The translations under genes were made by a program, and so were the position numbers. Below the pieces are notes generated by a model that saw nothing but the letters and a program-made list of their open reading frames with translations, was not told the origin of the DNA and ran no database searches. From Escherichia coli (GTDB lineage Bacteria > Pseudomonadota > Gammaproteobacteria > Enterobacterales > Enterobacteriaceae), in assembly GCF_041886205.1 (NCBI RefSeq), contig NZ_CP169029.1: DNA of 64,000 nucleotides. One strand, given 5' to 3'. This document shows, piece by piece, positions 10,354-44,668 of this stretch (position 1 is the first letter of the stretch; the number at the start of each line of letters is the position of its first letter).

Positions 10354-13575
<3,222 letters not shown>

Positions 13576-13592
13576 GGCTCTTTTACTCCTGA

Positions 13593-14741
13593 TTACTTAG
13601 CGGTTTTACGGTACTGCTCAATTAACTCGATAAAGTGGTCGAACAACGGCGCGGCGTCGTGTGGACCAGGGCTGGCTTCAGGGTGACCCTGGAAGCTGAA
13701 CGCCGGTTTATCGGTGCGATGAATGCCCTGTAACGTACCGTCGAACAGGGATTTATGCGTGACACGCAGGTTTGCAGGTAATGTTGCTTCATCCACCGCA
13801 AAACCGTGGTTCTGGGCGGTGATCATCACCACGTTTTTCTCAACATCTTTAACCGGATGGTTGCCGCCGTGGTGACCAAATTTCATTTTGACAGTCTTCG
13901 CACCGCTCGCCAGCGCCAGCAGCTGATGACCGAGACAGATGCCGAATACCGGAATATCGGTTTCGAGGAATTTCTGGATGGCGGTAATGGCGTAATCGCA
14001 CGGGGCCGGGTCGCCAGGACCGTTGGAGAGGAAGATGCCGTCTGGATTCATTTTCAGCACATCTTCCGCAGAAGTTTGCGCCGGAACGATGGTCAGACGA
14101 CAGCCTCTGTCCACCAGCATCCGCAGGATGTTGCGCTTGGCACCAAAGTCATAAGCCACAACATGGAACGGCAGCTCGTCTTCTTTTTTCGCTTCTGGCA
14201 GGCCGCCGGTCAACGTCCAGCTCCCTTGTGTCCAGCTATAGGCTTCTGCGGTGGTCACTTCTTTTGCCAGATCCATGCCATTCAGACCTGGGAACGCGCG
14301 GGCTTTTTCTAACGCCAGCGCCGCATCCGGGTTATCGCCTGCGATAATGCAGCCATTCTGTGCGCCTTTCTCGCGCAGTAAACGCGTCAGCTTACGGGTA
14401 TCGATATCGGCAATCGCCACGATGTTATGGCGTTTCAAGTATGAAGAGAGATCTTCGGTATTACGGAAGTTGCTGGCAATCAGCGGTAGGTCGCGAATCA
14501 CCAGACCTTGTGCATGTACCTGAGAAGATTCTTCATCGGCGTCATTAGTGCCGACATTGCCAATATGGGGGTAAGTAAGAGTAACGATTTGACGAGAATA
14601 GGAAGGATCAGTGAGGATTTCTTGATAACCGGTCATTGAAGTATTGAAAACGACTTCCCCAACCGCCGAACCTGTTGCCCCTATGGCCCGACCGTGAAAC
14701 TGGGTTCCGTCTTCCAGAACCAATAGCGCTGACTTAATCAA
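13593..14741 (-). CDS. carA: Carbamoyl-phosphate synthase small (glutaminase) subunit CarA
   Basis: 382 aa; start assigned to the TTG at 14739-14741 (reverse complement of CAA), consistent with the remembered unusual UUG start; the track ORF begins at an upstream GTG. Confidence 0.93.
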
Positions 14742-40012: not shown

Positions 40013-41143
40013 TTAGCGGGTCAGGTCGTCAAAAAACTTCTTCACACCATCAAAGAAGCTCTTTGAGCGCGGGCTGTTGTGCTCACCGGTTGGGCCACCG
40101 AAGCTTTCTTGCAGCTCTTGCAGCAACTGTTTCTGCTTCTCGTTCAGGCCTACCGGTGTTTCGACGACAACGCGGCACAGCAAATCACCCTGTGCGCCAC
40201 CGCGGACAGACTTGACGCCTTTACCGCGCATACGGAAAAGCTTACCGGTCTGGGTTTCGCCAGGCACTTTCAGTTTGACGCGACCATCAAGGGTCGGTAC
40301 TTCGATTTCGCCACCCAGCGCCGCCATAGCGAAGTTGATCGGGACTTCGCAATAGAGGTTGTTGCCTTCACGCTCGAAAATCGGGTGCTGTTTAACCTGA
40401 ACCTGAACGTACAGATCGCCTGCCGGTGCGCCATGCTCGCCCGCTTCACCTTCGCCCGCAAGACGGATGCGGTCTCCAGTGTCCACCCCTGCCGGGATTT
40501 TAACGGACAGCGTTTTGCTGCGCTCAACACGACCATGACCATGACATTTGTTGCACGGATCTTTGATCAGCGTACCGCGGCCCTGACAGTGTGGACAGGT
40601 CTGCTGTACAGCGAAGAATCCCTGGCGCATCTGCACCTGACCAGAACCATGACAGGTCGGACAGGTCTGCGGCTGTGTACCTGGTTTTGCACCGCTACCG
40701 TGGCAAACGTCACACTCTTCCAGAGTCGGAATGCGGATCTCTTTGGTCACGCCACGTACAGCTTCTTCGAGGGTGAGCTCCATGTTATAGCGTAAATCAG
40801 CACCGCGCGCCGCACGTTGACGACCACGTCCGCCGCCAAAAATATCGCCGAAAACGTCACCAAAAATATCGCTGAAGTCTGCGCCGCCGCCAAAACCGCC
40901 GCCGCCCATGCCACCTTGCTCAAACGCAGCATGACCATACTGATCGTATGCCGCACGTTTTTGCGAGTCGGTCAGAACTTCATAAGCTTCCTTGATCTCT
41001 TTAAATTTCGCCTCGGCCTCTTTGTCACCCTGGTTACGGTCCGGGTGGTATTTCATGGCCAGGCGTTTGTAGGCCTTTTTGATTTCACGCTCTTCCGCTG
41101 TTTTGGAAACGCCTAAAATCTCGTAATAATCTTGCTTAGCCAT
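40013..41143 (-). CDS. dnaJ: Chaperone DnaJ (Hsp40)
   Basis: J domain [12 protein letters not shown] ... HPDRN, Gly/Phe-rich region, four CxxCxGxG zinc-finger repeats; 376 aa. Confidence 0.97.
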
Positions 41144-41231
41144 CTTTTTTAAATTGCCCCTAGATGAATGCACGGGCGGAGAGGAAATTCCCCTTCGCCC
41201 GTGTCAGTATAATTACCCGTTTATAGGGCGA

Positions 41232-43148
41232 TTATTTTTTGTCTTTGACTTCTTCAAATTCAGCGTCGACAACATCGTCATCTTTCGCGTTGTTTGCAGA
41301 AGCATCAGCACCGGCAGTCTGCTGCTGGGCATGTTGCTGCTGGGCGATTTCCATCAGTTTCTGGGAAACCTGTGCCAGTTCCTGCATTTTCGCTTCGATA
41401 GCGGCTTTGTCTTCACCTTTCAGAGCAGTTTCCAGTGCAGTCAGCGCAGACTCGATAGCAGTTTTGTCGTCAGCCGGCAGTTTGTCGCCTGCTTCTTCAA
41501 CCTGCTTACGGGTGCTGTGCAGCAGATGGTCGCCCTGGTTGCGAGTCTGTACCAGCTCTTCAAACTTACGGTCAGCTTCGGCGTTAGCTTCTGCGTCGCG
41601 TACCATTTTCTGGATTTCATCTTCGTTCAGACCAGAAGACGCCTTGATGGTGATCTTCTGCTCTTTACCGCTGTTTTTATCTTTCGCGGAAACGTGCAGG
41701 ATACCGTCAGCATCGATATCGAAGGTAACTTCGATCTGCGGCATGCCGCGCGGTGCCGGGTTGATACCATCCAGGTTGAACTGACCCAGAGATTTGTTAT
41801 CAGCCGCACGTTTACGTTCACCCTGCAGCACATGGATGGTTACCGCAGACTGGTTGTCTTCAGCGGTAGAGAACACCTGGCTGTGCTTGGTCGGGATAGT
41901 GGTGTTTTTCGCGATCAGCGTCGTCATCACACCGCCCATGGTTTCGATACCCAGAGACAGAGGGGTAACGTCCAGCAGCAGTACGTCTTTTACGTCACCA
42001 GTCAGAACACCACCCTGAACAGCAGCACCGATTGCTACAGCTTCGTCCGGGTTAACGTCTTTACGCGGCTCTTTACCAAAGAACTCAGCAACTTTCTTCT
42101 GAACCATTGGCATACGAGTCTGACCACCCACGAGGATAACGTCGTCGATATCAGATACGGACAGGCCAGCGTCCTGCAGTGCAACTTTCAGCGGCTCAAT
42201 GGAACGGTTTACCAGATCTTCAACCAGGCTTTCCAGTTTCGCACGAGTCACTTTGATGTTCATGTGTTTCGGACCGGTCGCGTCTGCAGTGATGTACGGC
42301 AGGTTAACGTCGGTCTGCTGAGCGGAAGACAGCTCGATTTTCGCTTTTTCTGCCGCTTCTTTCAGGCGCTGCATTGCCAGCGGATCGTTGCGCAGGTCAA
42401 TGCCCTGATCTTTCTTGAATTCTTCAACCAGGTAGTTGATCAGACGGCTGTCGAAGTCTTCACCACCCAGGTGGGTATCACCGTTGGTTGCCAGAACTTC
42501 GAAGGTTTTTTCGCCGTCAACTTCGTCGATTTCGATAATAGAAATATCGAAAGTACCACCACCCAGGTCATAAACCGCGATAGTACGGTTGCCAGTACCT
42601 TTGTCCAGACCGTAAGCCAGCGCAGCTGCGGTTGGTTCGTTAATGATACGTTTTACTTCCAGACCAGCGATACGGCCTGCGTCTTTCGTTGCCTGACGCT
42701 GAGCATCGTTAAAGTATGCCGGTACGGTGATAACAGCTTCAGTTACCGGTTCACCCAGGTAATCTTCAGCGGTTTTCTTCATTTTTTTCAGCACTTCAGC
42801 AGAGATCTGCGGCGGTGCCATTTTCTGGCCTTTAACTTCGACCCAAGCGTCGCCGTTATCAGCAGCAATAATTTTGAACGGCATGATGGAAACATCACGC
42901 TGTACTTCTTCGTCCTGGAAGCGGCGGCCAATCAGGCGTTTAATCGCAAACAGGGTGTTTTGCGGGTTCGTCACTGCCTGACGTTTAGCCGGCTGACCAA
43001 CCAGAGTTTCACCATCCTGGGTATAGGCAATGATAGAAGGCGTGGTGCGATCGCCTTCGGCGTTCTCCAGCACGCGAGGAGTGGTGCCATCCATAATCGC
43101 TACACAAGAGTTGGTAGTACCCAGGTCGATACCAATTATTTTACCCAT
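41232..43148 (-). CDS. dnaK: Chaperone DnaK (Hsp70)
   Basis: 638 aa, [18 protein letters not shown]. Confidence 0.98.
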
Positions 43149-43194
43149 CTAAACGTCTCCACTATATATTCGGTCATCATGTGGTTGTGAGTCT

Positions 43195-43303
43195 GTAATA
43201 GGGGCGAAACGTCTGGTTTCAACTGCCCAATTTCATTTTTTTGCAGACTCACTCACTGCGGTTGACTACTAAATGGGGTCGTAACCCACGTCATCAAGGG
43301 GGA
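43195..43303 (-). promoter_or_regulatory. dnaK heat-shock (sigma-32) promoters P1 and P2
   Basis: Minus-strand CCCCCTTGATGA -N13- CCCCATTT (P1; -35 about 43291-43302, -10 about 43271-43278) and TTGAAA -N12- CCCCTATTA (P2; -35 about 43217-43222, -10 about 43196-43204), matching the sigma-32 consensus. Confidence 0.75.
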
Positions 43304-43524
43304 GATGCAAAAATTTTTTGTGCTTTTGCGCAGAAATTTCGCGATATAGCAGGACAAGACGTGAAACTGACAGCAATTTTATTCATATAAAGAATGAATC
43401 GCAGCCAAGGCATTCATCAAAAAATTGTAATAAAAAGAAATCATTACGCACCTGAATCTTCTCTTTATCAGCAGTAAACTAGTGGGTATCCATCCCCCTA
43501 CCTCTCCCCACTAAGAGAAGCCTT

Positions 43525-43929
43525 ATGAAATCCGTTTTTACGATTTCCGCCAGCCTGGCGATTAGTCTGATGCTGTGCTGCACGGCGCAGGCAAACGACC
43601 ATAAAATCCTCGGCGTCATTGCAATGCCACGTAACGAAACCAACGATCTGGCGCTGAAACTTCCTGTTTGCCGAATTGTTAAACGCATACAACTCTCAGC
43701 CGACCATGGCGATTTGCAGTTAAGCGGTGCATCGGTTTATTTCAAAGCCGCCCGTAGCGCCAGTCAGAGCCTGAATATTCCTTCAGAAATAAAAGAAGGG
43801 CAAACCACTGACTGGATCAACATTAACAGCGATAACGACAATAAACGCTGCGTCTCAAAAATCACCTTTTCCGGTCATACGGTGAACTCATCGGATATGG
43901 CCACGCTGAAAATTATCGGCGACGACTAA
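43525..43929 (+). CDS. yaaI: YaaI (DUF2541 family periplasmic protein)
   Basis: 134 aa with signal peptide; matches K-12 yaaI position and length. Confidence 0.88.
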
Positions 43930-43954
43930 CGCCAGAATATAGAAGCCACAAAAA

Positions 43955-44668
43955 ATGAATGTTAATTACCTGAATGATTCAGATCTGGATTTTCTCCAGC
44001 ATTGCAGTGAGGAACAGTTGGCAAATTTCGCCCGGCTGCTCACCCATAATGAAAAAGGCAAAACTCGCCTCTCCAGCGTACTGATGCGCAACGAACTGTT
44101 TAAATCGATGGAAGGACATCCCGAGCAACATCGCCGCAATTGGCAGCTGATTGCCGGAGAATTACAACATTTTGGTGGCGATAGTATCGCCAACAAACTG
44201 CGCGGACACGGTAAATTGTATCGGGCCATTTTGCTCGATGTTTCAAAAAGATTAAAGCTGAAAGCCGACAAAGAGATGTCTACGTTTGAAATTGAGCAAC
44301 AGTTACTGGAGCAATTTCTGCGTAATACCTGGAAGAAAATGGACGAGGAACATAAGCAGGAGTTTCTGCACGCGGTCGATGCCAGGGTGAATGAGCTGGA
44401 AGAGCTGCTGCCGCTGCTGATGAAAGACAAATTATTGGCAAAAGGCGTGTCGCATTTGCTTTCCAGCCAACTGACCCGCATTTTACGCACCCACGCAGCA
44501 ATGAGCGTACTTGGGCATGGTTTGCTGCGCGGCGCGGGGCTGGGAGGCCCTGTAGGTGCGGCACTAAATGGGGTTAAAGCGGTCAGCGGCAGCGCCTATC
44601 GCGTGACGATTCCAGCCGTACTGCAAATCGCCTGCCTGCGTCGGATGGTTAGCGCCACTCAGGTCTGA
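43955..44668 (+). CDS. yaaW: YaaW (HtgA-associated; DUF3944 family protein)
   Basis: 237-aa ORF at the syntenic position with matching length. Confidence 0.85.
   Translation: MNVNYLNDSDLDFLQHCSEEQLANFARLLTHNEKGKTRLSSVLMRNELFKSMEGHPEQHRRNWQLIAGELQHFGGDSIANKLRGHGKLYRAILLDVSKRLKLKADKEMSTFEIEQQLLEQFLRNTWKKMDEEHKQEFLHAVDARVNELEELLPLLMKDKLLAKGVSHLLSSQLTRILRTHAAMSVLGHGLLRGAGLGGPVGAALNGVKAVSGSAYRVTIPAVLQIACLRRMVSATQV

What the first reader, a model, noticed from the sequence alone, without database searches (positions are those of the whole stretch)
43195..43303. Tandem sigma-32 heat-shock promoters upstream of dnaK are readable directly
Two promoter-like elements matching the sigma-32 consensus (CTTGA(A/T) at -35 and CCCCATnT at -10) are present upstream of dnaK. 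This gives an internal consistency check on orientation and gene identity.
Basis: partly seen in the sequence, partly recalled or inferred. Interest (0 to 1): 0.15.

Follow-up and report, generated by a model that had tools for sequence, protein, structure and literature searches.

The report
Known dnaK heat-shock promoters P1 and P2

Summary
The window is E. coli. dnaK lies on the MINUS strand (43148..41232), and 43195..43303 sits in the 376-bp yaaI-dnaK intergenic region. On the minus strand there are two sigma-32-type promoters.

- P1: TCTCCCCCTTGAT (43305..43293), 14-nt spacer, CCCCATTTA (43278..43270).
- P2: GTTGAA (43223..43218), 14-nt spacer, CCCTAT (43203..43198).

The region aligns to K-12 MG1655 without indels, with one spacer substitution. 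Published K-12 data therefore transfer directly. Cappable-seq starts at K-12 12048 and 12123 map to window 43263 and 43188, each exactly 11 nt downstream of the -11 A. These are the two strongest starts in the interval.

P1 alone is statistically unusual: 1 strict match in the window against 0.03 expected. P2 is a degenerate match that chance would give; it does not literally fit "CTTGA(A/T)...CCCCATnT". P2 is supported by its mapped start, by ChIP-exo, and by conservation. Both -35 and -10 cores are invariant in 17 aligned Enterobacterales, while spacer sequences vary at fixed length. Both promoters are found in 19 of 21 Enterobacterales loci.

Verdict: observation confirmed, interpretation supported, already known (dnaKp1/dnaKp2), low interest.

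The parts
43309..43319 (-). A6T5 tract (AAAAAATTTTT) at -56..-46 of P1; possible UP-element-like sequence (inferred)
   Evidence: Read from the sequence. The A/T-rich character is conserved in 17 Enterobacterales: T20 and T21 invariant, A13, A14 and T19 nearly invariant. Function was not tested.
43293..43305 (-). dnaK P1 extended -35 element TCTCCCCCTTGAT (core CTTGAT at 43298..43293)
   Evidence: CCCTTGATG is invariant in 17 Enterobacterales. It matches the published consensus TNtCNCcCTTGAA (quoted in PMC12077118) except for the last base.
43279..43292 (-). P1 spacer, 14 nt. It contains the only difference from K-12 in the promoter block: G at 43285 where K-12 has T, position -22.
   Evidence: Spacer sequence varies freely but length is fixed across species. 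G is the majority E. coli allele: 33 of 40 evenly spaced genomes are 100% identical.
43270..43278 (-). dnaK P1 -10 element CCCCATTTA (-15..-7; the -11 A is at 43274)
   Evidence: CCCCA is invariant in 17 species. The cryo-EM paper reports -12 C paired and -11 A unwound on this promoter.
43263..43263 (-). P1 transcription start (+1, A), equal to K-12 12048; 115-nt leader
   Evidence: Cappable-seq TSS 12048, RRS 60.6. The dnaKp1 scaffold numbering -39..+15 and GTAGTCA(+1) agree. Coordinate transfer.
43236..43242 (-). A7 tract at -54..-48 of P2; possible UP-like sequence (inferred)
   Evidence: A90 is invariant, A89 and A91 are nearly invariant in the 17-species alignment. Function was not tested.
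43218..43223 (-). dnaK P2 -35 element GTTGAA
   Evidence: TTGAA is invariant in 17 species.
43198..43203 (-). dnaK P2 -10 core CCCTAT after a 14-nt spacer (wider context GCCCCTATTA, 43205..43196); the -11 A is at 43199
   Evidence: The register was fixed by cross-species alignment: CC..AT is invariant, and orthologues read CCGCAT, CCACAT, CCTCAT, CCCCAT or CCTTAT.
43188..43188 (-). P2 transcription start (+1, A), equal to K-12 12123; 40-nt leader
   Evidence: Cappable-seq TSS 12123, RRS 112.2, the strongest in the interval. A compiled promoter list also gives dnaKP2 at 12123. Predicted independently by geometry from the -11 A.
43156..43160 (-). Shine-Dalgarno GGAGA of dnaK
   Evidence: Invariant in 17 species.
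41232..43148 (-). dnaK coding sequence (638 aa)
40013..41143 (-). dnaJ coding sequence, second gene of the operon. The true ATG is at 41143 by transfer from K-12 14168; the 386-aa ORF listed from a GTG at 41173 is the mechanical maximum.

Best explanation
Window 43188..43305 (minus strand) carries the two tandem sigma-32 (RpoH)-dependent promoters of the E. coli dnaK-dnaJ operon, dnaKp1 and dnaKp2.

How it works:
- RNA polymerase carrying sigma-32 recognises each -35 element (CTTGAT for P1, GTTGAA for P2) through sigma region 4.
- It recognises each C-rich extended -10 (CCCCATTTA for P1, CCCTAT for P2) through regions 2 and 3.
- It melts the DNA from the -11 A and initiates at A 43263 (P1, 115-nt leader) and A 43188 (P2, 40-nt leader).

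Shown, in published K-12 data transferred here: the start sites, sigma-32 holoenzyme binding, and sigma-32-specific transcription from P1.

From established knowledge of the heat-shock regulon, not tested here: when sigma-32 rises (heat, unfolded protein, reduced FtsH/DnaK-mediated turnover), both promoters fire harder. The resulting DnaK/DnaJ feed back negatively on sigma-32.
For: 1. Identity: the region is 100% identical to E. coli genomes and annotated yaaI / dnaK. It aligns to MG1655 without indels.
2. Statistics: P1 is the only strict consensus match in 128 kb of searched strand, against 0.03 expected.
3. Mapped starts: Cappable-seq TSSs at 12048 and 12123 equal window 43263 and 43188. 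They are the two strongest + strand starts between 11543 and the early dnaK coding region (last position read, about 12226), 7-50 times stronger than their neighbours. A rule of +1 lying 11 nt 3' of the -11 A predicts exactly these bases.
4. Sigma-32 specificity: a cryo-EM sigma-32 open complex was solved on dnaKp1. In a reconstituted system sigma-32 drives dnaKp1 better than sigma-70 does. An RpoH holoenzyme SELEX peak lies at 12044. ChIP-exo confirmed multiple RpoH promoters at dnaK.
5. Conservation: both -35 and -10 cores are invariant in 17 Enterobacterales, with variable spacer sequence and fixed spacer length. Both promoters are present in 19 of 21 Enterobacterales, with the P2 leader held at 38-42 nt.
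6. Controls: a sigma-32-like match occurs in the sense upstream 200 nt of dnaK in 66 of 80 gammaproteobacterial loci. The controls gave 0/80 antisense, 0/80 and 0/80 in two coding-region stretches, and 1/80 in shuffles.
7. Population: the 116-bp block is at least 99% identical in 5411 of 5424 E. coli genomes, while the wider 461-bp stretch containing the whole intergenic region is mostly 95-99%.
8. Salmonella: PMC12077118 reports two putative RpoH sites in Salmonella 100% conserved with E. coli.
Against: - No experiment was done on this strain. All functional data come from K-12, which differs at one P1 spacer base (-22).
- P2 is not distinguishable from chance by motif alone: 7 hits against about 9 expected at its stringency.
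- One older genome-wide TSS set (Kim et al. 2012) lists only a 4-read start at 12157 for dnaK and neither P1 nor P2. The stored file was truncated and the data set is shallow.
- The primary mapping paper (Cowing et al. 1985) and Nonaka et al. 2006 could not be read. Heat inducibility and rpoH dependence are therefore taken from citing papers and general knowledge.
- The cryo-EM scaffold used a -35 changed to consensus (CTTGAA in place of CTTGAT).
Confidence: 0.96

Rival explanations
1. Only P1 is a genuine sigma-32 promoter. The P2 match is a chance resemblance, and the 43188 start comes from another sigma factor (for example sigma-70) or from RNA processing.
For: P2 is degenerate: GTTGAA plus CCCTAT, 7 of 12 specified positions of the extended -35 and 5 of 8 of the -10. 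Matches of that quality occur at the chance rate in the window. TTGAA-N-CCCCW gave 2 hits against 1.23 expected.
Against: - The 12123 start is enriched for 5'-triphosphate (enrichment 3.99 log2), so it is a primary start, not processing, and it is the strongest in the interval.
- TTGAA and CC..AT are invariant at a fixed 14-nt spacing across 17 Enterobacterales, while the flanking spacer varies.
- ChIP-exo confirmed multiple RpoH sites at dnaK.
- No sigma-70-type promoter was found on the minus strand here.
Confidence: 0.03
2. The architecture is not simply two promoters. A third, minor promoter lies downstream of P2. From my own memory, unverified here, databases list a dnaKp3.
For: Weak Cappable-seq starts at K-12 12140 (RRS 5.6) and 12155 (RRS 2.2) map to window 43171 and 43156. 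Kim et al. list 12157 with 4 reads. A CCACAT hexamer lies at 43184..43179, just upstream of 43171.
Against: - Similar weak starts continue into the coding region (12169, 12181, 12203 and beyond). They look like the low-level background seen near strongly transcribed genes.
- No TTGAA-like -35 lies at 13-17 nt upstream of CCACAT.
- No paper in the held library mentions dnaK P3.
Confidence: 0.25
3. The motifs are chance occurrences with no promoter function, or they serve the divergent yaaI gene.
For: None beyond the weak statistics for P2 taken alone.
Against: - The P1 pattern has 0.03 expected occurrences per window, yet lies in sense orientation 115 nt from the dnaK ATG.
- Mapped starts, binding data and deep conservation all support function.
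- The motifs are on the dnaK strand and point away from yaaI (43525..43929, + strand).
Confidence: 0.01

Closest known systems
E. coli K-12 dnaKp1 and dnaKp2 (sigma-32 promoters of the dnaK-dnaJ operon; Cowing et al. 1985 as cited in PMC12077118; used as the model sigma-32 promoter in PMC10216364 and PMC2910072)
   Same: Same locus and same organism. All -35, -10, start-site and leader bases are identical, with the same 376-bp intergenic length and the same distances to the ATG (115 and 40 nt).
   Different: There is one substitution in the P1 spacer at -22: G in the window, T in K-12. G is the majority allele among E. coli genomes and is shared with E. albertii and a Citrobacter.
dnaK promoter regions of other Enterobacterales (Salmonella, per PMC12077118; Citrobacter, Klebsiella, Pantoea, Yersinia, Photorhabdus and others fetched here)
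   Same: Tandem distal and proximal sigma-32-type promoters, with invariant CCCTTGATG / CCCCA and TTGAA / CC..AT cores, 14-nt spacers, and a proximal leader of 38-42 nt.
   Different: The distal leader length varies (112-181 nt). The P2 -10 varies at its two middle positions (CCTTAT, CCGCAT, CCACAT, CCTCAT, CCCCAT).
Single sigma-32 promoters upstream of dnaK in other Gammaproteobacteria (Vibrio, Shewanella, Pseudoalteromonas, Pseudomonas and others)
   Same: A CTTGAA-14/15-CCCCAT type element lies in sense orientation, mostly 40-80 nt upstream of the dnaK ATG.
   Different: These usually have one proximal promoter, often closer to consensus than E. coli P2. With one fixed pattern, only 6 of 59 non-Enterobacterales loci show both a proximal and a distal match.

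Membership tests
Sigma-32 (RpoH)-dependent heat-shock promoter, E. coli type | -35 element resembling TNtCNCcCTTGAA | tested here: met
   P1 is TCTCCCCCTTGAT, 11 of 12 specified positions of TCTCNCCCTTGAA. P2 is TTGGGCAGTTGAA, with the TTGAA core intact and 7 of 12 overall. Consensus as quoted.
Sigma-32 (RpoH)-dependent heat-shock promoter, E. coli type | C-rich -10 element resembling CCCCATtTa | tested here: met
   P1 is CCCCATTTA, a full match. P2 is CCCTAT(TAC), 5 of 6 in the core hexamer and 5 of 8 over the nonamer. The register was fixed by alignment A2. P2 on its own is a weak match.
Sigma-32 (RpoH)-dependent heat-shock promoter, E. coli type | Spacing of about 13-15 nt between the CTTGAA and CCCCAT hexamers | tested here: met
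   The spacer is 14 nt in both promoters. It is 14 nt (rarely 15) in all 21 Enterobacterales loci.
Sigma-32 (RpoH)-dependent heat-shock promoter, E. coli type | Primary transcript start a few bases downstream of the -10 element | tested here: met
   Published Cappable-seq TSSs 12048 and 12123 transfer to 43263 and 43188, each 11 nt 3' of the -11 A. The data are from K-12, not this strain.
Sigma-32 (RpoH)-dependent heat-shock promoter, E. coli type | Bound and transcribed by sigma-32 holoenzyme | not testable with these tools
   Literature on the K-12 sequence: cryo-EM open complex and in vitro transcription on dnaKp1; sigma-32 outperforms sigma-70 on dnaKp1; SELEX peak at 12044; ChIP-exo shows multiple RpoH sites at dnaK.
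Sigma-32 (RpoH)-dependent heat-shock promoter, E. coli type | Heat-inducible and rpoH-dependent in vivo | not testable with these tools
   Stated in PMC12077118 with reference to Cowing et al. 1985. The primary papers were not readable.

The most novel reading that the evidence does not exclude
The conserved A/T tracts at -56..-46 of P1 (AAAAAATTTTT, 43319..43309) and -54..-48 of P2 (AAAAAAA, 43242..43236) may be functional UP-like elements contacted by the RNA polymerase alpha C-terminal domains at these sigma-32 promoters. The tightly fixed 38-42-nt P2 leader across Enterobacterales may reflect a constrained post-transcriptional role.
Probability: 0.3. Interest if true: 0.12.

Novelty: already known. 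Interest (0 to 1): 0.04.

Why it matters
The finding serves only as an internal control. It confirms that the window is E. coli, that dnaK-dnaJ is on the minus strand, and that a tool-free reader can recognise a strong sigma-32 promoter. It adds nothing new to biology, because dnaKp1/p2 are the model sigma-32 promoters. One modest methodological lesson is that P2 would not be callable from the motif alone. It needs position, conservation or start-site data.

Tried and rejected
- Primary papers not held: Cowing et al. 1985 (PMC397628), Nonaka et al. 2006 (PMC1522074) and Thomason et al. 2015 (PMC4288677).
- ChIP-exo supplementary table with RpoH site coordinates: not held.
- Kim et al. 2012 TSS table: it lists only a 4-read start at 12157 for dnaK and neither P1 nor P2. 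I judged it too shallow to count against the promoters.
- Sigma-70 consensus scan of 42900..43700: no hit on the dnaK strand. The only hit is on the + strand at 43367..43395, possibly for yaaI.
- Rfam scan of 39500..44500: nothing in the promoter or leader region. The only match above a family gathering score is tpke11, between dnaK and dnaJ.
- RNA fold of the P1 leader: z = -1.3, not unusual, so there is no case for a structured leader.
- Searches for a documented dnaK P3 in the held literature: nothing found.
That register is the one conserved across species, and it places the -11 A exactly 11 nt from the mapped start.

Full report
**1. What is in the sequence**

The 638-codon ORF on the minus strand at 43148..41232 translates to a canonical DnaK.

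P1 on the minus strand:
- Extended -35 TCTCCCCCTTGAT at 43305..43293, with core CTTGAT at 43298..43293.
- A 14-nt spacer.
- -10 element CCCCATTTA at 43278..43270.

P2 on the minus strand:
- -35 element GTTGAA at 43223..43218.
- Downstream of it, the sequence GCCCCTATTA at 43205..43196.

The span therefore encloses both promoter-like elements, clipping only two bases of the extended P1 -35.

**2. Is it more than chance?**

That hit is P1, against 0.03 expected from dinucleotide-preserving shuffles.
- P2 does not match that pattern. It has G before TTGAA, and its -10 is CCCCTATT or CCCTAT.
- Allowing up to two mismatches over the two hexamers with a 13-15 nt spacer gives 7 hits in the window. 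Markov-1 random sequences give about 9.
- The loose pattern TTGAA-N12-16-CCCCW gives 2 hits against 1.23 expected.

P1 is thus statistically striking on its own. P2 is not, and needs other evidence.

**3. Identity of the locus**

- The 461 bases around the site are 100% identical to several E. coli chromosomes and match 5424 of 5426 complete E. coli genomes. The features under the match are annotated yaaI and dnaK.
- In one identical strain the neighbourhood reads yaaA, yaaJ, tal, mog, satP, msyB, yaaI, then dnaK, dnaJ, an IS421-family transposase and mokC.
- Against K-12 MG1655 (NC_000913.3; dnaK 12163..14079) the alignment has no indels. Within the promoter-proximal 250 bp there is one substitution: window 43285 is G where K-12 has T, in the P1 spacer.
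- Coordinates therefore transfer as K-12 position = 55311 minus window position.

**4.

Cappable-seq of MG1655 used M9-glucose at 37 C. It scores 5'-triphosphate ends by relative read score (RRS) and by enrichment over a control library. On the dnaK strand it lists the following:
- Nothing between 11543 and 12048.
- 12048, RRS 60.6.
- 12123, RRS 112.2.
- Only weak positions afterwards: 12140 (5.6), 12155 (2.2), 12169 (4.3), 12181 (8.2), and more running into the coding region.

The two strong starts map to window 43263 and 43188, both A.

Independent sources agree:
- The cryo-EM sigma-32 open-complex paper numbers its dnaKp1 scaffold -39..+15. This puts +1 on the same A and reports -12 C paired and -11 A unwound.
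- A reconstitution study writes the promoter as ...CATTTA(-10)GTAGTCA(+1).
- A compiled promoter list gives dnaKP1 at 12047 and dnaKP2 at 12123.

A simple rule, +1 lying 11 nt 3' of the A in CCnnAT, predicts exactly 43263 and 43188.

**5. Sigma-32 specificity (literature, K-12 sequence)**

- dnaKp1 is the template on which the sigma-32 open complex was solved and assayed.
- In a reconstituted system, sigma-32 drives dnaKp1 more strongly than the tac promoter, and sigma-70 does the reverse.
- Genomic SELEX with RpoH holoenzyme gives a peak at 12044 in the yaaI/dnaK spacer, which is window 43267.
- ChIP-exo after heat shock confirmed dnaK as a unit with multiple RpoH promoters.
- A Salmonella study reports two putative RpoH sites 100% conserved with E. 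coli, and quotes the consensus TNtCNCcCTTGAA / CCCCATtTa.

**6. Conservation**

I fetched 80 gammaproteobacterial dnaK loci with upstream flanks.

Motif scan with controls: a sigma-32-like match (up to 1 mismatch per hexamer, 13-15 nt spacer) occurs as follows.

| Region scanned | Loci with a match |
|---|---|
| Sense strand, 200 nt upstream of dnaK | 66 of 80 |
| Antisense strand of the same region | 0 of 80 |
| Coding-region control 1 | 0 of 80 |
| Coding-region control 2 | 0 of 80 |
| Shuffled upstream sequence | 1 of 80 |

Alignment of 17 Enterobacterales upstream regions:
- The invariant columns are CCCTTGATG and CCCCA (P1), TTGAA and CC..AT (P2), and the GGAGA ribosome-binding site.
- The spacers differ freely in sequence but keep their length.
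- This fixes the P2 register as GTTGAA, 14 nt, CCCTAT (43203..43198). Orthologues read CCTTAT, CCGCAT, CCACAT, CCTCAT or CCCCAT.

Distribution of the tandem arrangement:
- Both promoters are present in 19 of 21 Enterobacterales loci.
- The predicted P2 leader is 38-42 nt and the P1 leader 112-181 nt.
- Outside the order a single proximal promoter is the usual arrangement.

Within E. coli:
- The 116-bp promoter block is at least 99% identical in 5411 of 5424 genomes.
- The wider 461-bp stretch is 95-99% identical in most genomes.
- The window's G at 43285 is the majority allele, since 33 of 40 evenly spaced rows are 100% identical. The K-12 T is the minority allele.

**7. Mechanism**

Shown, by transfer from K-12:
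- Two primary transcript starts at the predicted distance from two sigma-32-type -10 elements.
- Sigma-32 holoenzyme binding.
- Sigma-32-selective transcription from P1.

Inferred from established knowledge of the RpoH regulon:
- Both promoters rise with sigma-32 concentration on heat shock or protein unfolding.
- The DnaK/DnaJ they produce promote sigma-32 inactivation and FtsH-dependent degradation, which closes a negative feedback loop.

Not shown here:
- Behaviour in this particular strain.
- The relative heat-shock contribution of P1 and P2.
- Any role for the conserved A/T tracts upstream of each -35 (43319..43309 and 43242..43236).

**8. Things that led nowhere**

- The primary papers were not available, and neither was the ChIP-exo table.
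- An older, shallow TSS set lists only a 4-read start at 12157.
- No sigma-70 consensus promoter was found on the dnaK strand.
- Rfam finds nothing in the promoter or leader.
- The leader fold is unremarkable, z = -1.3.
- No held paper documents a dnaK P3. The weak starts at 43171 and 43156 resemble the background that continues into the coding region.

**9. Verdict**

The object is the already known dnaKp1/dnaKp2 pair. There are three corrections:
- The elements are on the minus strand.
- P2 is a degenerate match (GTTGAA / CCCTAT, 14-nt spacer), not a literal CTTGA(A/T)/CCCCATnT.
- P2 is credible because of start-site mapping and conservation, not because of the motif.

Novelty: already known. 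Interest: very low.

Noticed in passing
window 41154..43190 (+): A 678-aa open reading frame runs antisense across the whole of dnaK and ends inside the P2 region. It hits Pfam PF10712 'NAD-GH, NAD-specific glutamate dehydrogenase' at E = 7e-249. From my own knowledge, long antisense ORFs in hsp70 genes are a recognised by-product of codon bias, and this family was built on them. The hit should not be read as a gene.
   Followed up: partly
window 41144..41221 (-): The Rfam family tpke11 (RF02031) matches at 69.6 bits (gathering 43), E = 2e-14. It fills the dnaK-dnaJ intergenic spacer up to the base before the dnaJ ATG.
   Followed up: no
window 43285: This is the only difference from K-12 in the promoter block: G instead of T at -22 in the P1 spacer. 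G is the majority allele in E. coli and is shared with E. albertii and a Citrobacter, so the K-12 T appears to be the derived, minority form. The functional effect is untested. The column is not conserved across species.
   Followed up: partly
window 43156 and 43171 (-): Weak Cappable-seq starts in K-12 at 12155 and 12140 (RRS 2.2 and 5.6) fall between P2 and the dnaK ATG. Kim et al. list 12157. Similar weak starts continue into the coding region, so these may be background rather than a third promoter.
   Followed up: partly
window 43309..43319 and 43236..43242 (-): A/T tracts (AAAAAATTTTT and AAAAAAA) lie about 46-56 nt upstream of each start. Their A/T character is conserved in Enterobacterales, and they sit where UP elements would lie.
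   Followed up: no
window 38632..39750 (+): A 372-aa ORF lies just downstream of dnaJ. By position it corresponds to the IS421/IS186-family transposase annotated there in strain LHM10-1 and to IS186A in K-12. This was not checked by family search.
   Followed up: no
window 43367..43395 (+): This is the only sigma-70-like consensus match in the intergenic region (CTGACA, 17 nt, AAGAAT). It points towards yaaI (43525..43929, DUF2541) and is a possible yaaI promoter. The count is no more than chance gives.
   Followed up: no
window about 55311 onward: By coordinate transfer from K-12, the window should run across the conventional start of the E. coli chromosome map (thrL side) into the end of the genome record. 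This was not checked against the sequence.
   Followed up: no
L018, L022-L081 upstream of dnaK: Outside Enterobacterales most dnaK genes have a single proximal sigma-32-type promoter, often nearer to consensus than E. coli P2. About a dozen loci (for example several Marinobacter, L070-L072, L074, L075) show no match within 400 nt, perhaps because dnaK there is transcribed from an upstream grpE or hrcA promoter.
   Followed up: no
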